This document shows, piece after piece, positions 1,625-58,736 of a stretch of 64,000 nt of DNA (the stretch's first letter is position 1; each line of letters opens with the position of its first letter). A model generated the notes under the pieces. The model ran no database searches. It saw nothing but the letters and a program-made list of their open reading frames with translations, and was not told where the DNA came from. Source of the DNA: Octopus vulgaris (taxonomy: Eukaryota); the NCBI GenBank assembly GCA_951406725.2, contig OX597815.1, positions 139,624,001 to 139,688,000 on the forward strand, read 5' to 3'. Made by a program: the position numbers and the translations under genes.

Positions 1625-2436
1625 GTATAAGGGTGAAAAGGAACACACGAGTTGATATATATGAAAAAACAAGTAAAAAATAGAAAATGCTAAAATAATT
1701 TTATAGTGAACATTTCAGTACCGGTTTCGGTCATTTTGAGACCTTTTCAACTGTAACGATTAAATAATTAAATTTAGAAAAATTAGAAGAAAAGTTTTTT
1801 AAAACAATATTTCTATAGTAGTGTTCAGATTTAAGTGGCATTCTGCCTTTCTCTGACTCCCTTGTTTGCACTTGTGTGTTCGAGGTAGTTGTGAGTTCTT
1901 GGTAGGGTAGTAGAGGGAAGGCTGGTGAGGAAAGGGGGGTGGGAGAATCTGGGAGTGCCCAGTGGCGGCTGGCAGTCTCAGTTCAATTCAGGAGAATATT
2001 TATATCGACAGGCTTGTTTATAGAATTAGCGTAGGTGTTATACTAAAAAACATTAGTGACAAACTTAAGGGGTAGGGGGTGGAGAAGAAGAAGAAGAAGA
2101 AGAAGAAGAAGAAGAAGAAGAAGAAGGAGAAGGAGAAGGAGAAGATGATGGTGATGGTGGTGATGATTATGACGACGATGATGATGATAACGATGATGAT
2201 GAAGAAGAAGAAGAAGAAGAAGGAGGAGAAGGAGAAGAGAAAGGCAGAATGCCACTTAAATCTGAACACTACTATAGAAATATTGTTTTAAAAAAACTTT
2301 TCTTCTAATTTTTCTAAATTTAATTATTTAATCGTTACAGTTGAAAAGGTCTCAAAATGACCGAAACCGGTACTGAAATGTTCACTATAAAATTATTTTA
2401 GCATTTTCTATTTTTTACTTGTTTTTTCATATATAT
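1625..2436 (-). mobile_element. Truncated Penelope-like element with inverted pseudo-LTR pair
   Basis: 1655-1854 is the reverse complement of 2236-2436 apart from one homopolymer indel. The spacer reads KYSPELN* on the minus strand, like a PLE GIY-YIG C-terminus. Each arm carries an HHR-like motif and the element is flanked by (TA)n. Confidence 0.75.
2335..2378 (+). ncRNA. Minimal type I hammerhead ribozyme, U3-A8 variant (mirror copy 1713-1756 on minus)
   Basis: CAG-TTGAAAA-GGTC-tcaaaat-GACC-GAAA-CCGG-TA-CTG: stem I CAG/CTG, stem II GGTC/GACC, palindromic stem III ACCGGT, GUA cleavage triplet. Confidence 0.7.
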
Positions 2437-5426: not shown

Positions 5427-8023
5427 CAGAGTGTCGTGAATAAATAGTCGTCTAAATTACACAAAAACGAAAATAACACCGACATCTCATATTAACATAT
5501 ATTTACCAAAATTACATAAAAGTATCTTGAAATACTAAAGAGTGAATATATTCAATAAAATCGCCATTGGCTTCAACCACGGCCTCCAGACGACTTCGGA
5601 ATCTGTTGCAACTCTTCTGGACGGTCTCTTTGCTTAACAACCAGATTGCAACGTTGGTAGACTCAGCAGGCGTATCGATTGAGGACCCTTATCAACAGAG
5701 TCAATTATTTGCCGAGACTTTTTCAACTATTTTCAAACAAGATGATGGTCGTGAACCCCCTCCATTTGATAGATCGGTACCTCCAATGCTTCGATTGGTC
5801 ATCACGCGGGACGAAGTCAAACGTGTTATTCAAGGCCTCGATGTCAACAAGGGTCACGGCCCTGACGGTATACACCCACGGGTTATCAAAGCGTTGGCTC
5901 CGGTCATCTGCGAGCCCTTAACACGTCTATTCAATATGTCATTGGCGACGGGTGTTATACCTGCAGACTGGAGAACAGCGATAATCTGCCCAATTTTCAA
6001 GAAAGGGAGCCGCGAAGACCCGCTTAACTACTGACCGGTTTCCCTTACATCAATAATCAGCAAGATGTTCGAAACCATCCTTAAGAAAAGTATGATGCTC
6101 CACCTCCAAAACACAGCCTCTATCTCTGATTCCCAACACGGCTCCGTGCTGAAGAGATCATGCTTGACCAACTTACTGGTAATGGAAGAATTGGTGACGC
6201 GCATCCTCGATGATAGTGATGCTGTTGACATCGTTTTATTGGACTTTGCCAAAGCTTTTGACTCGGTAAACCACCGCCTATTACTTGTCAAGCTTCAAGC
6301 ATATAGTTTCCATCCGGATATTGTACAATGGGTTGGTGCCTTCCTCTCAGATCGCTCCTTCCAAATCCAAGTTAATGGTTCGCGGTCCGACGTCTCCAGT
6401 GCGAGCAGTGGCGTGCCTCAAGGTTCAGTGCTTGGGCCCTTATTGTTCTTAGTCTTCATAAATGACTTGCCCGACGACCTCACGCAACACACCCTTCTAT
6501 TTGCCGACGATGTCAAACTGGTCGCTCCTCGCGGTGATATAGAGGATCTTCGTCGATGCTTCCACCAAATTTGGAAGTGGTCTAACGATTGGGACCTGTG
6601 TCTGAACGTGTCAAAGTGCTGTCATCTGCCTGTCGGCTCTACTCCTGCAACTCAACTTGATTTCGAGCCGGGTCGTCTGCTGCTGGAGAGGACCGATCAG
6701 GTAAAGGACCTGGGTATCTTGGTGGGTTGCTCCTTTTCGCCTTCGGCCCAGTGCCTTCCATGCTGCCAACAAAGCACGCGGAATTCTGTTCTTGATTCGA
6801 CGGTCATTCGGAATGCTCGCAGCAGCCATATTCCTACCACTCTATGTCACGCTGGTGAGACCCATATTGGAGTACGGGATTCAAGCCTCTTCTCCTTATC
6901 TCCTCAAAGACATACAGCATATCGAAAGAGTCCAGAAGCTGGCTACCCGCATGGTTCATGGTCTCAAAAATTTGTCCTATGAAGAAAGGCTGAGGACGCT
7001 CGACCTTTATTCTCTAGAAAAACGCCGCCGCCGTGGTGATCTCATTCTCGCCCACAACATCATAAGCGGAAAGTGTAACCTCTCAAAAGAGCTGTTCTTC
7101 ACTCCTGCTCCAGAGCGTCGGCTGCGGGGTCATTCCGAAAAGCTCTACCTGCGACGATTTCATCTCAATCGAAGGAGAGGAGCTTTCTCCGTCCGGGTTG
7201 CGGATCCGTGGAACAAGCTGCCAGACGAGATGGTGAAGATGCCGACGACCGCTTTGTTCAAAGCCTCCCTTGACCTCAAGTGGCCTGAACTCTTTACATG
7301 AACACCACCCTGTACTTAACTCCATGTCCCCCTACATGGCCTTGCCATTTGCTTTTGAGCCAAATTAACTAACTAACTAACTAAGTTAGTGAATGCTGCC
7401 ATAATCCTTACCCTCAGTTCATTTTTGGTGTTACAAGGAGTTTTGTTGGTCTGTCACTAGCTGCACCCCAAACATAATAATCAAGGGGATTGCAGTCTAT
7501 GGAGTTCGGTGGCCAGATTATAGGGATGAAGTGGTCGCAGAAATTGTCTGACAGCCATCACAGGGTTCTCCTGCTTGTGTGGCATGTTGCAGAGTTAAGT
7601 CCTGTTGCCAGACATAGGATCTTCCTGCAGCCACCCTCTTGAACCAGGACAGCACTACTTCCTTCAGGCACTTGATGTAGGCTTCCGTGTTGAGTCTGAG
7701 GCATAACGTCACCATTACTAGTGATCACACCAGACACCATGATGTTGACTGGATGTTTGATTGTCATCACTCTCAGTACATGTCCTCAGATTGCACTGTT
7801 CTCAGATTGACTCTCAAACACTGAAACACTGAGCTTCCAGAGCGAATGTCAGGCAGTACAGCATGTCGTTTCCAAATTTCTGGCAGATTGAATTGCATCA
7901 TGGTGCTTTTCTTCTCACGGACGGTGCCCAACTGACCCTACTATACTATGCTATCAAAAAGAAACAATGCACATGTGCGAAATTAACATTATAAAATGGC
8001 GACAATTTACCCATCGCATCCTG
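5427..8023 (-). mobile_element. Tc1/mariner DD37D/maT-like transposon, decayed, interrupted by a LINE at 5638-7384
   Basis: Degenerate TIRs (CAGAGTGTCGTGAATAAATAGTCG and CGACAATTTACCCATCGCATCCTG), TA on the left flank. Minus-strand peptides KHPVNIMVSGVITSNGDVM, RSYVWQQD and WPPNSIDCNPLDYYVWG. The C-terminus resumes left of the LINE. Confidence 0.85.
5638..7384 (+). mobile_element. 5'-truncated CR1-group LINE; ORF2 reverse transcriptase pseudogene (one stop at 6032-6034, one frameshift near 6755)
   Basis: GPDGIHPRVIK, NY*PVSLTS, DFAKAFDSVNH, GVPQGSVLGPLLF, LLFADDVKL, LVRPILEY and WNKLP motifs; stop at 7301; short 3' UTR; (AACT)n tail. Confidence 0.95.
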
Positions 8024-8114: not shown

Positions 8115-8435
8115 TCACATATATGACGGTCTTTTCCTCTCTCCGTCTAAAAAATTCGCTCACAAGGCATTAGTGAATCGAGGCTATAGTTGCAGAAACT
8201 TGCCCAACTATACACTGAACACGGAACTATGTGGTTGAGACGGAAACTTCTTGAAGGAGTTGGGTTCCGATTAGAGGCATGCGAAACTCGAAGTAGTACG
8301 GAACCAAATCAAACTGTTTTAATTAATGGTGCATGCACCTCCTACAAAACGTGTTGAGTACCCTTTTCTTTCGTTTGTCCATTCACTCGTACATACACAC
8401 ACACACATACACATACATACATATATATATATATT

Positions 8436-8590
8436 TAAAAAAGGAGATGTGGAACACGAGTTGTGATATATAAAAAAGGGAATGAAGAAAATGCTGACAA
8501 AATAATTTAAGTAATTTAAGTAATTTAATTAGGTGAAAGTTCTTTTTACCGGTTGCGCATTTGTTATGCTTATCAAAAGTTTTATCCTCT
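8436..8590 (-). mobile_element. PLE pseudo-LTR fragment related to 1625-1760, with degenerate U3-A8 HHR (8542-8579)
   Basis: Shares GGAACAC..GAGTTG..ATATAT with 1640-1660. Minus strand reads TTGATAA-GCAT-aacaa-ATGC-GCAA-CCGGTA. Flanked by (TA)n. Confidence 0.55.
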
Positions 8591-9301
8591 TATATATATA
8601 TATATATATATGCATGTGTTTATACATCCGTACATACATGCATATATACATACACACACACCCATAACGTATGTACATGTGTCCATAGTATATGTATGTA
8701 CGTGTATTGTGCGTATGCTGTGTGAGTATGTGAGTGTGTGTGTATGTGTGTATGTGTGTGCATGTGTGCGTAAGTGTGTGTGTGTATCTGTCTGTCTGCC
8801 TGTCTGTTTGAGCCGCTGTGTCCGTGCGTTGTACCTTGAAAGGATCATTTTGCAAGACAAAAGCATTGTTTATGTTTCACTAACAGTAATATCAGTCAGC
8901 TAATTAATTAATTGAATAATTAAGGGCTTGATCAATCGTTTGACTAATCAATCGGTTGACTCGTCTAAAGAAAAATTTAGAAAGGTCATTTTGTGGCAGA
9001 ACTAGAGCAGATGAGGGCACGACAGTGATAAAGTCACAGGTTGCGACGAAAGCACTTTCGCAAACCAACCGAATGATAAGATCAAACAATTGATAAAACT
9101 ATTGATTAGTTAATTAGTTAGCTATTTCACTGAAGATGCTAAAAAGAAATCAAATATTACCAGCTCATCTGCTTTATTTGTTTTATTTTATTTCGCAAAA
9201 TGACCCATGACCACCATAAGGTACAACAACATCATGCTTCAACATCCAATTTCTTGAATCTTGTAAAACATACACATGTATATACATATGTGCTTGTGTA
9301 C

Positions 9302-14013: not shown

Positions 14014-14211
14014 ATCTTTATCTTTATCTTTATCTAGTTTCAGCTCACGAGCTGTGGCCATGCTGGGGCACCGCCATTTAAATAATGTGCTATGCTTACT
14101 GCACCTAGGTTTCCCAAGCGGTCACCCATCTAAGTACTGACTAGGCTCAACGTTACTTAACTTCGGTGATCAGACGAGAACCGGTGCTTTCAACGTGATA
14201 TGGCCGTAAGA
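14014..14211 (-). mobile_element. Candidate 5S-derived SINE (SINE3-type) with family A 3' tail
   Basis: 5S head, about 17 nt linker, then GGCGGTGCCCCAGCATGGCCACAG-hairpin-AAACTAG and (ATAAAG)3. Confidence 0.7.
14093..14211 (-). rRNA. Full-length 5S rRNA-derived sequence (about 119 nt), probably the head of a retroposed SINE-like element rather than a functional 5S gene
   Basis: Minus strand CTTACGGCCATATCACGTTGAAAGCACCGGTTCTCGTCTGATCACCGAAGTTAAG...GTACTTAGATGGGTGACCGCTTGGGAAACCTAGGTGCAGTAAGC. Box A and box C are recognisable; there is no oligo-T terminator. Confidence 0.92.
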
Positions 14212-17545: not shown

Positions 17546-17986
17546 TCAGATGAATATGGTACTTAAGTTAAAGGCACCAGAATTTAGTATGGTATTATCC
17601 ATATAACTCAAAATGGGGTGATTATAATCAAAATAAGCAACAAGGATATCCAGAGGTAATGCAGTACGATCGTTTCATGCGACTCCATTTAATTGAAAGA
17701 TGCAAACATTTAACTCAATTTAAAATGTAGAGCAATCTTCAGCTGCATAAAAATATAGAATTTAGTTAAATTCGAAGGATTCATTTGTATAGTTTTCTTT
17801 TTGTGGTTTTGGATAAAAAGAAAACTATACAAATGAATCCTTCGAATTTAACTAAATTCTATATTTCTATGCAGTTGAAGATTGCTCTACAGTTTAAATT
17901 GATGTAATGTTTGCATTGTTCAATTAAATAGAGTCGCATGAAACGATCGTACTGCATTACCTCTGGATATCCTTGTTGCTTATTTT
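17546..17986. mobile_element. PLE-derived fold-back: inverted arms 17630-17802 and 17815-17986, each with an HHR
   Basis: About 172 bp imperfect inverted repeat with a 12 bp spacer, flanked by (TA)/(TG) microsatellite. Confidence 0.75.
17659..17748 (-). ncRNA. Type I hammerhead ribozyme with long stem II (mirror copy 17869-17957 on plus)
   Basis: ATGCAG-CTGAAGA-[about 58 nt imperfect hairpin]-GAAA-CGATCG-TA-CTGCAT: 6 bp stem I, palindromic ACGATCGT stem III, GUA triplet. Confidence 0.72.
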
Positions 17987-18196
17987 AATATGTGTGTGTG
18001 TGTGTGTGTGTAGACACATATATGTGTATGTATATATGTATGTATTATGTATGTGTGTATACGTACGTATGTATGTATGTACGTTGGTATGTATATTTGC
18101 ATGTGTGTGTGTGTTCGCAACTAACGACGAGATGAGAAAGCGAAGCATAATGTGTTTATTCATTTGATTCTCTAGAACGCAAGAAATTAAAGGTAT

Positions 18197-23420: not shown

Positions 23421-23470
<50 letters not shown>

Positions 23471-24102
23471 TATATATATATAAATAGATAGATAGGTAGA
23501 TATACATACATACATACATACATACATACATACATACATACACAGAGACAAGCACACATATACATACACACGCACACAGAAAAAATACACGCACCCACCC
23601 ACATATATATATATTGTATCATATCCCTATCATATTTATATATTCATACACACACATACAAACATAATAAACGTGTGTATGAGTGTATAAATGAGAAAGA
23701 GATATTGATACAATTATAGATATATTTAGATAGACTATATATAAATATCGACGCATATAATAAATACGTTTGTCAGCATGTAAGCGTGTATGTGAGTGTG
23801 TGAGTGTGTATGTATGTATATATATGTATATATGTATATATATATATATACTATCTTGTTTATGTATTATGTTGTGTCTGAAGGGTGGCTAGTATGCGGG
23901 TTAAGTTGAAAGCAGATATTAAGAAAATCTAAAGAGATAGATAGAATGATCAAAGACTGAAAATAGAAGAGAGAAAGTAGAAACAAGACAGAAGGAAAAA
24001 AAAAGAAAAGAAAAAAAAAGCTGTGGGGTGGGTTTTTCTATAAGTCTTCGTTTTTACGAAATTAATATATTAATGGAAAATGGGCGGCCAAAACCGATTA
24101 TG

Positions 24103-32690: not shown

Positions 32691-32784
32691 CAATTTTTAG
32701 CACACGTATACACACACAGCACACACACATATCTATACACACACATACACACAGACTCACATACATACACACAAACATACATAG

Positions 32785-33476
32785 AGTTCTATATTTAAGA
32801 GATGAGGAATTATGTACATTATTAACATTTGACGGATATTTGTCCTCATCTTGTTTGTTCTTAACACGTTTCGGTTAATATACCTTCCAGCCTTCATCGG
32901 GTGTCTTGGGAAAATTTCTAACCCGGTTTCTCGTTCCTAAGTTATTTTTCGATGTTATATTAATAATAATAATAATTATCATCATCATCATCATCATTAT
33001 TATTATTATTATTCAAAATCACTGCCTCGAACTCAGAATCTTGGGGTTAGTAGCCCGCGCTCTTAACCACTACGCCATATGCCCGTGGGCAATTATAGAG
33101 TGAATTTTAGGGCTTATAAATCTAATATTTTCCTATCCTTCCTTAATACCGGTTCCCATATGCTGCTCATATCTACACTCGGTCTGCTTAGGAGGTTGTT
33201 GTGTCCTAACATATGTGCTGTTTCTTTTAGTTTTCTTATTTTCCAGTAGTGTTCTCTGTCTATTATTTTAACTTCATCCCACAGGGGGAGGTGGTCTCTA
33301 TTTTTCCCTACATGAACAGCTATACCCGATTTATCAATATCTCCTCGTGTCACAGTTTTGCGATGTTTGTCTACCCTTATTTTGAGGGGCGGCACATTTC
33401 ACCTTTGTATAGCCTACCACAGCTGCACGGGATGGAGTACACGCAGTCTTTGGTCAAATTCTTTTCTGTTGGTTGC
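32785..33476 (-). mobile_element. Penelope element 3' fragment: GIY-YIG endonuclease, tRNA-like cassette, pseudo-LTR with degenerate HHR
   Basis: TKDCVYSIPCSCGRLYKGE...KIRVDKHRK...SGIAVHV...RKLKETAHM...NLLSR; HHR remnant at 32863-32905; same family as 42249-43887. Confidence 0.9.
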
Positions 33477-34029
33477 AATATGAACTTAATTTGTACTGGC
33501 ACTCCGTCGGTTACGACGTCAAGGGTTCGAGTTGATCCGATCAACGGAACAGCCTGCTCGTGAAATTAACGTGCAAGTGGCTAAGCAATCCACAAGCACG
33601 CATACCCTTAACGTATTTCTCAGGGTTGACTTAGCGTGACGCAGAATGTGACAAGGCTGACCCTTTAAATTACAGATATAACATATTCTTGCCAGCTCAC
33701 GATCGTGAGCCGAATACCCTAAACACTAAGCTAAACATCCTTCACAACCTATTTTACCTGCAATATATTAACGACTACTTAAATATAGTCTGAAAACAGG
33801 TGAAAAATAACAAAACGCAACTCCATTGAATAAACTTTTCCTACATCTCCATACATTTTGCAGAATTATTCACCTATAAGGTACGTGTAAACTCTAGATT
33901 TTGTTCATTGTTTCATTCAGCCTTGAGACAAATGAATCTTGAAAGTCAAGGACAACATATATCCGTGAGTACCTGCGTGAGTATATAATTATCACAGTCA
34001 ACCTATATATACACACACACATACTCACA

Positions 34030-34463: not shown

Positions 34464-35071
34464 GAAAATAGAATACATCAAAACTAATATTATTATTATT
34501 ATTACAGAATACTTGATAGAGTATCACATAACACATTCGGATATACATATCATCCTCATGAAAGATTAAGAGCATGCTAAGATTTTGTAAGCAGAGTTAG
34601 CCGTTGGAATAACCGTCTTAGGGATAAGAATATCCGTTCTTACTACTGGTATCATTTACCTATATTATCTCTGGGCATGGGTATGCAAGCACACTGTGCT
34701 TATAGGGTACGGGTAATAAATTTAAATAAGCAGAAAATGGGGGAAACATTTGATCAACAAAAGGAAAATTAGTCAATTATTTTTTAATACAAAACATAAC
34801 ATGACATAACATTTCTCACGGCCGCTTCGGCTGCCGATGTCAATCGGTGCTTACAAAGAAAATTCCGAAAATCATATTCGCCATCTTTATAGCACATTCG
34901 ATCTAGTACATGGTGCTTCATCAGAGTAAATACAAATACCCAAAATAAAATAAACGAAGGGAAGAGGAAAGAACAGAGCCTCGAGATGAGGCCAGAAGGC
35001 TCAATATATTAGAATCCTTATTTGCAATATTTACATTTGACGGGTATTTGTCCTCATCTTGTTTGTTGTTA

Positions 35072-35115
35072 ACACAACGTTTCGGCTGATATACCTTCCA
35101 GCCTTCCTCAGGTGT
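35072..35115 (-). ncRNA. Intact-looking minimal Penelope HHR in a solo pseudo-LTR (about 35020-35140)
   Basis: ACAC-CTGAGGA-A-GGCTG-gaaggtatat-CAGCC-GAAA-CG-TT-GTGT. Confidence 0.8.
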
Positions 35116-35227
35116 CCTGGGGAAATTTCGAAACTGGGTCATGTTGTGTTATGTTTTGTATTAAAAAATAAGTAACCGATTTTGGTCGGTTTGTTTGTTG
35201 ATCAAAGGTTTTCTCCATTTTCTGCTT

Positions 35228-42248: not shown

Positions 42249-43887
42249 AGTTCTATATTTAAGAGATGAGGAATTATGTACATTATTTACATTGTTTACA
42301 TTCGGCGGATATTTGTCCAGCGACAAGGGAAATGCTATAGTGGTGATGAACAAGTCTGACTACTCTGAAAAATTGGCAAGTCTTATAAGTGATGGTAGCT
42401 ACAGCAAAGAAAAGAAAGACCCAACTCTGAAAACAGAAAGGAAGTTGTCACAGATCTTGATCAAGAACAAGGATCACTTTACACCAATGAAGTACAGACA
42501 ACTGACTCAACACCACAGTAAACTACCAAACATATACGGCCTCCCTAAGATTCACAAGGATGGTATTCCATTAAGACATATAGTGAGCTGTAGAGGTTCA
42601 GTATATCATCCACTGAGCTGCTTCCTTGTGGATATTATCAGTCCATTGGCAGGGAAGTCAACATTGTACGTGAAGAATTCCACCCACTTCCCACAATTGA
42701 TTCCAACAAAATGGTGAGTGTAGATGTGATAAGTTTGTTCACCAAAGTCCCAACTGGTGAAGCACTATTGGTGAAACAAGAAAAACTAGTGACAGACACC
42801 CATCTAAAAGAACACACTAGTTTGCCAATAAGAAACTTGATGGAAATGTTGACCTTCTGTGTAAAAACTACCTACTTCAGTATGGACACTGATATATATC
42901 GACAAGAGGAGGGTTTTATCTATGGGTTCACCATTATCACCGGTAATATCCAATATATACATGGAATACTTTGAGAATTTGGCTTTAGGATCAACACCAC
43001 AATCTGTTTAAGCAACAACTACCCCAAAATTATGAAGAAGAGAGAGAATGAGGCCAATAAACTGTCCATAGTATGTCTACCCTATGTGGAAGGCCTCTCT
43101 GAAAAAATATAAAGCATATGCGGCCCATATGACATCAGGACAGTATTCAAGAGTAATACAACACTTCGCAAATATCTCTTTCGAGTAAAACCACCAATAG
43201 AAGAGAATATAACCAAAGACTGCGTGTACTCCATCCCGTGCAGCTGTGGTAAGTTATACAAAGGCGAAACATGTCGCCCCTCAAAATAAGGGTAGAGGAA
43301 CATCGCAAAACTGTGAAACAATGAGATATTGATAAATCGGGTATTGCTGATCATGTATGGAAAAATGGAGACCACCTCCCCCTGTGGGATGAAGTTAAAA
43401 TAATAGACAGAGAACACCACTGGAAAATAAGATGACTAAAAGAAGCAGCACATATGCTAGGACGAAACAACCTCCTAAGCAGACCGAGTGCAGATATGAG
43501 CAGCATATGGGAACCGGTATTAAAGAAGGATAGAAAAATATTAGATTTATAAGCCTTAAAATTTACTCCTTAATTGCCCATGGGCAAATGGCGTAGTGGT
43601 TAAGAGCGCGGGCTACTAACCCCAAGATTCTGAGTCCGATTTCTGAACAACAACAATAATAACAACAACAACAACAACAACATCTGTTGAAGAAGGCTGG
43701 AGTGGATAATATACTTTTGGGGTAGTTGTTGCTTAACAGATCGTTATTGAGTGTTATCATTTCTTCGTGGTGTGTATCACGATCGCTACTTATATTCATC
43801 CTGAAGAAGGCTGGAGGCTATATCAGCCGAAATGTTGTGTTAACAACAAACAAGTTGAGGACAAATATCCTTCGAATGTAAATAATT
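42249..43887 (+). mobile_element. Penelope/Poseidon-type retroelement, rearranged RT plus GIY-YIG pseudogene
   Basis: SDKGNAIVVM, YGLPKIHKDGIPLRHIVS, MVSVDVISLFTKVP, MGSPLSPVISNIYMEYFE and CVYSIPCSCGKLYKGET motifs. Inverted partial pLTR at 42249-42318; 3' pLTR with HHR at 43797-43841; YVDD region deleted. Confidence 0.93.
43582..43645 (+). promoter_or_regulatory. tRNA-like Pol III cassette inside the Penelope 3' region (second copy 33020-33084 minus)
   Basis: TGGCGTAGTGG box A, GGG-CTACTAA-CCC anticodon-like arm, GAGTCCGAT/GAGTTCGAG box B-like sequence. Confidence 0.65.
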
Positions 43888-50820: not shown

Positions 50821-51711
50821 ACTAAAGATGTAAGTATTAAGACTGACACATACATACATACATACATACATACATACATACATACATACATACGTACATA
50901 CATACATACATACATACATACATACATACATACATACGTGTGTAACTATTATCATCGTCTTCCTCTTCATCATCATTATCATCATCATCATCATAATCAT
51001 CATCGCCATCATTAAACAAATACAGACGTTGTTCAAGAGCGTATAGAGTTTCGTTCTAAAGCACTTATCAAACTCCTCCAATATTCTTAACTAATAAAAG
51101 ATTACATGCACACTGCTTTGCGTATTAAATTCTCTTTCTCCTGTTTGTAAAAACCAAGCGTATGTGTATGTGTGTATCAAATGATATATAAGTGCAGTTA
51201 ATACGAAGCGACACTTGAAAATAAAGCCAGGCTACATAAAAAAGTACATATATAATATTCTTTCTCTGAACACAATCCTCTTTCTAACTGCCAGACATTC
51301 ATAAAAGTGTATGAACGAGATGCTTTCGTCAGTAGACTACAAAGTGAAATGTATGAATGTGATTATTGCCACACTTTATATAAACATTCTCATATACTCT
51401 CTTCTTTGAACGTCTGACTGCTAGAAAATGTGTCCGGCGATAGTCTATGTATATATTTCAATAAATAGCCTCACTTTATTTCTAAGTATCTCATCATTAT
51501 GGCTACACTTATATACATATGCATATAATGACATATGTATGTATATATATATATATATATATATATACTGTTGTGTCTGGGGAGAGTCATTTTCTTTATG
51601 TGCCTTATAATGTAATACACTCACCGGTAAAATTTCCACTTATTTCTTATTTTTATTTTCCTTAAATTTTCGTTGCGTCTTGCAACCTTTTCAATAGTCT
51701 TGACTCAATAC

Positions 51712-51764
<53 letters not shown>

Positions 51765-51769
51765 ATATA

Positions 51770-52088
51770 TTGATAGAAATGGCAAGGCGACAAAAGAATG
51801 AAAGAGACCTGGATATTATGTAAATAGAGGAATTTATCTGTAAATATAATATGTGACAATTATTCGGTAGCCATGATAAAACTCCGAGTTTCGGATGTCG
51901 GGGCGGAAACCCACAGCGGCATCTCTTCATTTATCCGGCCATCGTAAGAACAAAAAAACGTTGTTCAAGAATGTATAGAGTTTCGTTTATTTTTCGATGG
52001 CCCGATAACTGAAGAGATCCCGGCGTGGGTTACCGCCCCGGCATCCAAAGCTCGGAGTTTTATCATGGCTACCGAATAATTGTCACAT
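51770..52088. mobile_element. PLE-derived inverted pLTR pair (51851-51944 and 51995-52088) with HHRs
   Basis: About 94 bp imperfect inverted repeat. The consensus of the arms is a complete HHR. Flanked by (TA)n. Confidence 0.72.
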
Positions 52089-52105
52089 CAGATATATATA
52101 TATAC

Positions 52106-58482: not shown

Positions 58483-58551
58483 AGAGTAAACACATAAATG
58501 TGAAACAAGGTGGAAAAAAGAGTACTCAAATACCAGTGGTAGAGTAATATG

Positions 58552-58636
58552 CTTTATTTAAAGCAGCAGAAAATTCAACAAAATCTGTTACTCTGAGTAA
58601 CAGATTTTGTTGAATTTTCTGCTGCTTTAAATAAAG
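58552..58636. repeat. Perfect palindrome, 42-bp arms with a 1-nt spacer
   Basis: 58552-58593 is the exact reverse complement of 58595-58636. Confidence 0.95.
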
Positions 58637-58736
58637 TATATATATATATATATATACATACATATACATATATTTCATATACATACATATATACACACAT
58701 ATGGCGATACAGATGATATGCATCTCTCTCTCTCTC

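What the first reader, a model, noticed from the sequence alone, without database searches (positions are those of the whole stretch)
2335..2378. Recurrent U3-A8 hammerhead core variant
Seen: the core is TTGAAAA instead of CTGANGA, with stem II, GAAA, palindromic stem III and GUA intact. The same double change occurs at 1713-1756, 8542-8579 (TTGATAA, different stem II) and 51661-51697 (TTGAAAA, stem II GTTGC/GCAAC). Established: positions 3 and 8 form a tertiary Watson-Crick pair, so U3-A8 is compensatory. Inference: at least one PLE lineage here uses a covariant core that CUGANGA-based searches would miss, and the different stem II sequences argue for selection on the fold.
Basis: partly seen in the sequence, partly recalled or inferred. 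Interest (0 to 1): 0.78.

Follow-up and report, generated by a model that had tools for sequence, protein, structure and literature searches.

The report
Known U3-A8 hammerhead in Penelope-like repeat
A small hammerhead-shaped RNA motif with a U-A instead of a C-G core pair is the standard form in a very abundant repeat that is likely the end piece of a Penelope-like jumping gene and would likely cut RNA only as a pair; the same core swap has been in print since 2011 and 2014, so this is an ordinary new example.

Summary
The motif at 2341-2372 (+) is real: a type I minimal hammerhead with core UUGAAAA, 4-bp stem II, GAAA, palindrome ACCGGU, GUA site and 3-bp stem I. U3-A8 is the family consensus, not decay: thousands of contigs from 4 runs (4 organism labels) show no core variant at 2% or more. 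The recurrence is overstated. 1719-1750 is the same insertion's 99.5% identical inverted arm. The 8547-8576 copy is a true homologue with a changed but still paired stem II, but has GCAA, not GAAA. The 51665-51694 motif lacks ACCGGU, GUA and stem I. An inverted arm, a 30-bp tail at one end and a (TA)n target fit a truncated Penelope-like insertion; no ORF was found. The variant is published: Perreault 2011 (natural U3-A8) and Cervera and De la Pena 2014 (Schistosoma Cercyon elements, about 1,300 hits, same UUGAAAA and UUGAUAA heptamers, same remark that standard descriptors miss it). This scan has also noted it in several other genomes. Cleavage is untested. One open point: U3 can pair with A17, which may damp cleavage. 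Verdict: new member of a known kind, low interest.

The parts
2338..2375 (+). Type I minimal hammerhead motif with U3-A8 core, in the inverted arm; predicted cleavage between 2372 and 2373
   Evidence: best Rfam match in 2250-2430 is Hammerhead_HH9, 19.7 bits, E 0.011, below the gathering score of 52
1716..1753 (-). Identical hammerhead motif in the main copy of the element (U3 = 1750, A8 = 1745, A17 = 1719)
   Evidence: family-wide constancy
2236..2436 (+). Inverted 201-bp arm, 99.5% identical to 1655-1854; likely the inverted 5'-truncated copy typical of PLE insertions
   Evidence: structure described in PMC8557442
1655..2082 (-). Main copy of a high-copy repeat, likely a PLE end repeat; no ORF recognised; lacks 23 bp that other family members carry at 1959
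1625..1654 (-). About 30-bp tail present at only this end of the insertion; its first 10 bases are shared with the 8576 copy
   Evidence: 30-40 bp one-ended tail described for PLEs in PMC8557442 and PMC11167929
1601..1629 (.). (TA)n run flanking the 3' end, likely the insertion target
2083..2238 (.). (GAA)n/(GAT)n microsatellite between the main copy and the inverted arm
8432..8591 (-). Diverged, truncated homologue between (TA)n runs; motif 8547-8576 with TTGATAA, stem II GCAT/ATGC, GCAA (A13 changed, likely inactive), ACCGGT-A
51570..51713 (-). 144-bp segment between (TA)n runs with a partial U3-A8 motif at 51665-51694; possibly a remnant of another family; homology not shown
35076..35111 (-). 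Comparison only: canonical C3-G8 minimal hammerhead of a different family (relatives at 43801 + and about 32900 -, both downstream of a decayed PLE-like ORF end)

Best explanation
The motif is a hammerhead-shaped sequence with a U3-A8 core that is the standard form in a high-copy repeat family, likely the end repeat of a Penelope-like retrotransposon, and it is predicted to cut the element's RNA after GUA only when two copies pair through the ACCGGU palindrome. Steps. (1) Shown: the anatomy of the motif and its constancy in the family. (2) Shown: the insertion has an inverted arm, a 30-bp tail at one end only and a (TA)n flank; inferred: these mark a 5'-truncated PLE insertion. (3) Predicted: a monomer has no stable stem III, while two copies form a 6-bp stem III, so tandem-copy transcripts would fold the active dimer. 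(4) From the literature: U3-A8 replaces the tertiary C3-G8 pair; inferred: cleavage is slow and may need the element's protein. (5) Inferred: this locus is inert, because its two motifs lie on opposite strands and a read-through RNA would pair them into a 200-bp hairpin.
For: Anatomy and chance level. Family consensus: laid 12, 2386, 2502 and 1571 contigs from 4 runs at 80% likeness or more; none of the 29 substitution rows falls on 1744-1750 or 1719-1728. The only two rows inside stem II are 1743 and 1729, the two sides of pair 10.1-11.1 (G-C to A-U or G-U). Loose ends at 1735 in X2 (22 contigs) and X13 (18 contigs) show a subfamily with A10.1 and a different 5' flank that keeps the same core. 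The 8576 homologue changes 3 of 4 stem II pairs on both sides and keeps U3, A8 and the palindrome. Dimer: palindrome duplex -8.3 kcal/mol; monomer with a 1-bp stem III -0.2 against -5.4 without it; intermolecular palindrome pairs have probability 0.92 and 0.99. PLE hallmarks: against PMC8557442. Precedent: PMC4209133, PMC3088659.
Against: No reverse transcriptase or GIY-YIG frame was found in the 330 bp upstream of the motif, so PLE membership rests on insertion structure. Core invariance is not significant by itself: P(0 of 11 core positions hit) is 0.47 over the element and 0.22 locally. RNAfold pairs U3 with A17 (probability 0.67 in the monomer, 0.82 in the dimer), which is not the active state. 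In one type III hammerhead all core double mutants but G3-C8 had low activity (PMC9901934). The motif lacks the extra base after A9 that most PLE minimal hammerheads have. The Rfam score is far below threshold.
Confidence: 0.75

Rival explanations
1. The motif is a genuine PLE hammerhead descendant but no longer cleaves to a useful degree. It is inherited with an active element, or kept as a structure that the element's protein binds.
For: U3-A17 pairing is predicted and costs about 2.2 kcal/mol to open in the dimer (-27.1 against -24.9). U3-A8 was not a rescue in PMC9901934. Hammerhead mutants did not affect insertion by an Anolis PLE in vitro (PMC11167929). Core invariance is not significant.
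Against: The 8576 homologue keeps U3, U4, G5, A6, A8, A9 and the palindrome while stem II is rewritten. Perreault 2011 states that U3-A8 ribozymes had been shown active in vitro (the primary paper was not seen).
Confidence: 0.25
2. The repeat is a non-coding, non-autonomous hammerhead element (retrozyme-like or SINE-like) that borrows PLE proteins, not the end of a coding PLE.
For: No ORF found. The 4-bp stem II without a bulged base and the short palindromic stem III resemble canonical metazoan type I motifs as described in PMC4209133. The best Rfam match is HH9. A 2026 preprint derives animal retrozymes from PLE end repeats (passages).
Against: The copy is not in a head-to-tail array; it has an inverted arm and a one-ended tail. 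Stem I has 3 contiguous pairs, not 6. Only about 330 bp upstream are present, so a missing ORF is expected from truncation.
Confidence: 0.15
3. The family consensus is C3-G8 and these copies are random decay products, or the motif is a chance match in A-rich DNA.
For: TTGAAAA is a common word in a 36% GC window; the loose pattern reached 2 hits in some shuffles. Chance remains possible for the 51694 site.
Against: No C at position 3 or G at position 8 at 2% or more in 4 of 4 runs. The full descriptor gives 0.05 U3-A8 hits per shuffled window. The C3-G8 motifs in the window belong to an unrelated family.
Confidence: 0.02

Closest known systems
U3-A8 minimal hammerheads of Cercyon Penelope-like elements, Schistosoma mansoni (Cervera and De la Pena 2014, PMC4209133)
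   Same: Same covariation, in PLE end repeats, about 1,300 hits with a new descriptor; Fig. S3 shows the heptamers UUGAAAA (S. mansoni 4, Cercyon) and UUGAUAA (S. mansoni 3); type I, short stem I, palindromic stem III; pairs of motifs on opposite strands 100-700 bp apart are also described (here 591 bp between the U3 positions).
   Different: Here no extra base after A9, stem II of 4 bp (6 bp in S. mansoni 4), a 6-nt palindrome instead of 4, and A17 (U17 and G17 in the two Schistosoma rows). Different host; cephalopod-like by my recollection of such sequence, not tested.
Natural U3-A8 hammerheads (Perreault et al. 2011, PMC3088659)
   Same: C3-G8 covarying to U3-A8 in several natural ribozymes.
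   Different: The passages seen do not tie them to PLEs or give rates for them.
PLE hammerhead of the shrimp Marsupenaeus japonicus (Fig. S3 of PMC4209133)
   Same: 4-bp stem II, 6-nt palindrome from 15.1 to 16.1, A17, core of seven bases with no extra base as laid out in the figure text.
   Different: It has the canonical C3-G8 core and a 5-bp stem I.
Rfam Hammerhead_HH9 (RF02275)
   Same: Best match over 2327-2391, 19.7 bits, E 0.011 for a 181-base search; similar loop II and GAAACC..GGU.
   Different: Far below the gathering score of 52; short stem I and stem III; U3-A8 core.

Membership tests
Hammerhead ribozyme, type I | Core (C/U)UGAN(G/A)A, GAAA, UH with a Watson-Crick 3-8 combination | tested here: met
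   UUGAAAA, GAAA, UA at 2341-2372 and 1719-1750. Not met by the 8576 copy (GCAA).
Hammerhead ribozyme, type I | Stems I and II around the core, stem I open | tested here: met
   3-bp stem I and 4-bp stem II, both in the minimum-energy fold, though that fold is not more stable than shuffles (z -0.4 and -1.2).
Hammerhead ribozyme, type I | Site-specific self-cleavage after N16.2-U16.1-H17 | not testable with these tools
   Needs an in vitro assay or raw RNA reads; only contigs were available.
Hammerhead ribozyme, type I | Reaches the gathering score of an Rfam hammerhead model | tested here: not met
   HH9 19.7 bits against 52; no hammerhead among the 150 best of 314 matches shown in the whole-window scan. 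Lowers membership in those Rfam families, not the hammerhead reading.
Minimal hammerheads of metazoan PLEs (Cervera and De la Pena 2014) | Palindromic stem III that allows a dimer | tested here: met
   ACCGGU; predicted intermolecular 6-bp helix.
Minimal hammerheads of metazoan PLEs (Cervera and De la Pena 2014) | G10.1-C11.1 pair | tested here: met
   G2348-C2362; a minority subfamily has A or U at these places.
Minimal hammerheads of metazoan PLEs (Cervera and De la Pena 2014) | Extra base between positions 9 and 10.1 (usual, not universal in Fig. S3) | tested here: not met
   Absent at 2341, 1750 and 8576; present at 51694 and in the C3-G8 family.
Penelope-like elements | RT plus GIY-YIG frame joined to the end repeat | tested here: inconclusive
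   None in 1855-2082, but the copy stops there; no genome held.
Penelope-like elements | Inverted 5'-truncated copy next to the insertion | tested here: met
   2236-2436 against 1655-1854.
Penelope-like elements | 30-40 bp tail at one end only | tested here: met
   1625-1654 is absent from the inverted arm.
Penelope-like elements | Insertion in microsatellites such as (TA)n (some clades) | tested here: met
   weak, since such runs are common in this window.
Non-LTR retrozymes | Head-to-tail tandem array of short hammerhead units | tested here: not met
   No direct repeat of the unit in the window; arrays elsewhere in the genome not testable.

The most novel reading that the evidence does not exclude
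This lineage combines U3-A8 with A17, so U3 can pair either with A8 (active core) or with A17 (stem I extended, site locked). The family-fixed combination is a built-in off state that keeps the element's RNA intact until dimer formation or the element's own protein opens it. None of the 3 U3 rows in Fig. S3 of PMC4209133 has A17, though one has G17, which could wobble-pair in the same way.
Probability: 0.12. Interest if true: 0.45.

Novelty: new member of a known kind. Interest (0 to 1): 0.15.

Why it matters
Little new biology. It adds one abundant family, held by runs under 5 organism labels, to the U3-A8 subtype that was described in 2011 and 2014, and it repeats the practical lesson that hammerhead searches must allow U3-A8. 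The same window carries a canonical C3-G8 family, so the two cores coexist in one genome, as in Schistosoma. The family would be a convenient substrate for measuring a natural U3-A8 PLE hammerhead, for which I saw no rate in the passages read.

Tried and rejected
No whole genome is held, so a genome-wide descriptor search and covariance model could not be run; I did not build a model from 2-3 distinct copies. A generic U3-A8/ACCGGT pattern in metagenome contigs gave 120 stretches from 16 of 64 parts: 0 of 120 had both a stem II of 4 bp or more and a stem I of 3 bp or more, and none matched the element by blastn; treated as chance. A family-specific pattern found 0 matches in viral contigs and 0 in prokaryote genomes. 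The whole-window Rfam scan was dominated by microsatellite matches to miRNA models. The 83-residue frame at 1734-1982 (-) has only a sub-threshold Pfam match (DUF463, E 0.14) and spans a place where this copy lacks 23 bp found in other family members; rejected as a gene. MAFFT misaligned the core of the 8576 copy, so the stem comparison rests on the descriptor and the downstream alignment. The RT frame at 6035-6979 (PF00078) is 3.6 kb away and shows no link to the element. Literature searches: 'hammerhead' with 'U3-A8' gave 1 paper; whole-word U3A8/C3U/G8A gave 3 unrelated papers; hammerhead + octopus + Penelope listed 4 papers, none on this by title or abstract. Przybilski and Hammann 2007 and Lunse et al. 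2016 are not held; they may bear on activity and on A17 variants.

Full report
Observation. The window is AT-rich, microsatellite-rich eukaryotic DNA; it looks cephalopod-like to me, which is recollection and was not tested. At 2338-2375 (+) the sequence reads stem I CAG, core TTGAAAA, stem II GGTC/GACC around a 7-nt loop, GAA, the palindrome ACCGGT, A, then CTG. In the standard hammerhead numbering (recalled; also used in PMC4209133) this is U3, U4, G5, A6, A7, A8, A9, G12, A13, A14, A15.1, U16.1, A17, with a GUA cleavage triplet. A descriptor with positions 3 and 8 left free, stem II of 4 bp or more and stem I of 3 bp or more found 3 motifs on both strands: 2341 (+), 1750 (-) and a C3-G8 motif at 35111 (-). 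In 20 block-wise dinucleotide shuffles the U3-A8 type averaged 0.05 per window. Rfam's best match in 2250-2430 is Hammerhead_HH9 at 19.7 bits, E 0.011, below its threshold of 52.

The four sites are not equal. 1655-1854 and 2236-2436 are one inverted duplication with a single-base difference in 201 bp, so 1719-1750 repeats the same event. The 8547-8576 motif has TTGATAA, stem II GCAT/ATGC and ACCGGT-A, but GCAA in place of GAAA and 2 bp of stem I; A13 is part of the conserved core, so it is likely dead. It is a real homologue: the stretch downstream of the cleavage site, without the core, aligns with score 56, which 0 of 2000 shuffles reached. Three of its four stem II pairs differ on both sides and still pair, which is the best evidence here for selection on the fold, from one comparison. 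The 51665-51694 motif has the core, an extra base, a 5-bp stem II and GAAA, but then AATT-T, no GUA and 0 to 2 bp of stem I, and no downstream similarity (1751 and 892 of 2000 shuffles scored as well against the two other copies). In its favour, it lies in a 144-bp segment between (TA)n runs with the core 125 bases from the downstream run, against 126 for the 1750 copy and 127 for the 8576 copy once two extra 9-bp repeat units are set aside (counted). It may be a remnant of another family; I leave it as doubtful.

Family consensus. No genome is held, so I used public runs. 20 of 24 listed runs, from 11 studies and 5 organism labels, hold 0.69-0.83 of the words of 1630-2070. I laid 4 of these 20, one each from labels A, B, C and E, at 80% likeness with a 2% listing threshold: 12, 2386, 2502 and 1571 contigs. 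The element is a high-copy repeat. The substitution table has 29 rows; none is at 1744-1750 (positions 9 to 3) or 1719-1728 (17 to 12). The two rows in stem II are 1743 (G10.1 to A, 1-11% by depth) and 1729 (C11.1 to U, 6-32%), the two sides of one pair; matching depth values suggest that one X1 contig of depth 4 carries both, which is inference from a low-depth record. Loose ends at 1735 in X2 (22 contigs) and X13 (18) show a subfamily with A10.1 and a different 5' flank but the same core; 326 further loose-end rows were not shown.

What the element is. The main copy runs on the minus strand from about 2082 to 1625 and ends in (TA)n. The last 30 bp (1625-1654) are missing from the arm, and their first 10 bases recur at the end of the 8576 copy. 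An inverted 5'-truncated copy, a 30-40 bp tail at one end only and a bias for microsatellites are described for PLE insertions (PMC8557442, passages; tail also in PMC11167929, passages). No coding frame was recognised upstream, so PLE membership is inferred from structure. For comparison, the window's C3-G8 motifs at 43801 and about 32900 follow a decayed coding tail; a 45-residue piece of it gave 66 of 66 candidates at E 0.001 or better, 3 of them with the RT family PF00078; reading that tail as a PLE GIY-YIG end is from my own knowledge.

Mechanism. A monomer cannot close stem III: adding the single A15.1-U16.1 pair raises the energy from -5.4 to -0.2 kcal/mol, whereas two palindromes form a 6-bp duplex of -8.3, with pair probabilities of 0.92 and 0.99 in two-strand folding. 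This matches the dimer model for PLE hammerheads, whose in vitro activity is low (PMC4209133; review PMC6765202, passages) and in one element needs the element's protein (PMC11167929). The likely role is to cut tandem-copy transcripts. At this locus the two motifs are on opposite strands and would pair with each other in a read-through RNA, so it is likely inert. Two results count against full activity. Folding pairs U3 with A17 (0.67 monomer, 0.82 dimer; 2.2 kcal/mol to open), though these models ignore tertiary contacts. And in a pairwise mutagenesis of one type III hammerhead only the G3-C8 swap rescued the core (PMC9901934, passages). Perreault 2011 says U3-A8 ribozymes had been shown active in vitro, citing a paper I could not see.

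Comparison with what is known. Cervera and De la Pena 2014 (PMC4209133; I read main text parts 1-2 of 4 and supplement parts 1-2 of 3) found, by homology to the Cercyon PLE of Schistosoma mansoni, a variant not considered in their descriptor with U3-A8 instead of C3-G8, and retrieved about 1,300 hits. Their Fig. S3 shows UUGAAAA and UUGAUAA cores, and they describe motif pairs on opposite strands 100-700 bp apart. Perreault 2011 (PMC3088659, passages) first reported the natural covariation. What differs here is detail: no extra base after A9, a 4-bp stem II, a 6-nt palindrome, A17, and probably a new host group. Searches showed no paper on this family, judged from listings. Lunse 2016 and Przybilski 2007 were not available, and the supplements of the 2026 preprint (passages) were not seen; they may bear on activity and host range. 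Earlier notes of this scan report U3-A8 PLE hammerheads in other genomes (7 shown); a search by sequence and one by place found nothing for this DNA. These notes are leads only and came after I had read the 2014 paper.

Verdict. Real motif, real family trait, known variant. New member of a known kind; interest 0.15.

Noticed in passing
window 43150-43880 (+), 32750-33500 (-), 35000-35135 (-): A second family with a canonical C3-G8 minimal hammerhead downstream of a decayed PLE-like coding tail and a short microsatellite; the 32900 copy has a changed core base and the 43801 copy a changed palindrome.
   Followed up: partly
window 51835-52104: An 80% identical inverted pair with CTGAAGAG-like and CGAAAC motifs around a long GC-rich stem; possibly a third hammerhead family in inverted arrangement, not recovered by my descriptors.
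   Followed up: no
window 8577-8591 and 51695-51713 (-): Both short copies begin only 14 and 17 bases upstream of the core, directly after (TA)n; may reflect truncation near the folded motif, or chance.
   Followed up: no
window 2357-2359 (+) and the matching place in 8547-8576 (-): An ATG lies at the loop II/stem II junction in both the main family and the diverged homologue; the frames close after 14 and 4 codons. In an Anolis PLE the ORF starts in stem II (PMC11167929).
   Followed up: no
window 14093-14211 (-): A full-length 5S rRNA match, 104 bits, apparently solitary in this window.
   Followed up: no
window 5546-7301 (+): A decayed non-LTR retrotransposon reverse transcriptase region in three frame pieces (PF00078, E 1.8e-27 for 6035-6979).
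   Followed up: partly
window 17627-17989, 23454-23867, 58547-58641: Further self-complementary stretches (92%, 67% and 97% identity) in the self-comparison.
   Followed up: no
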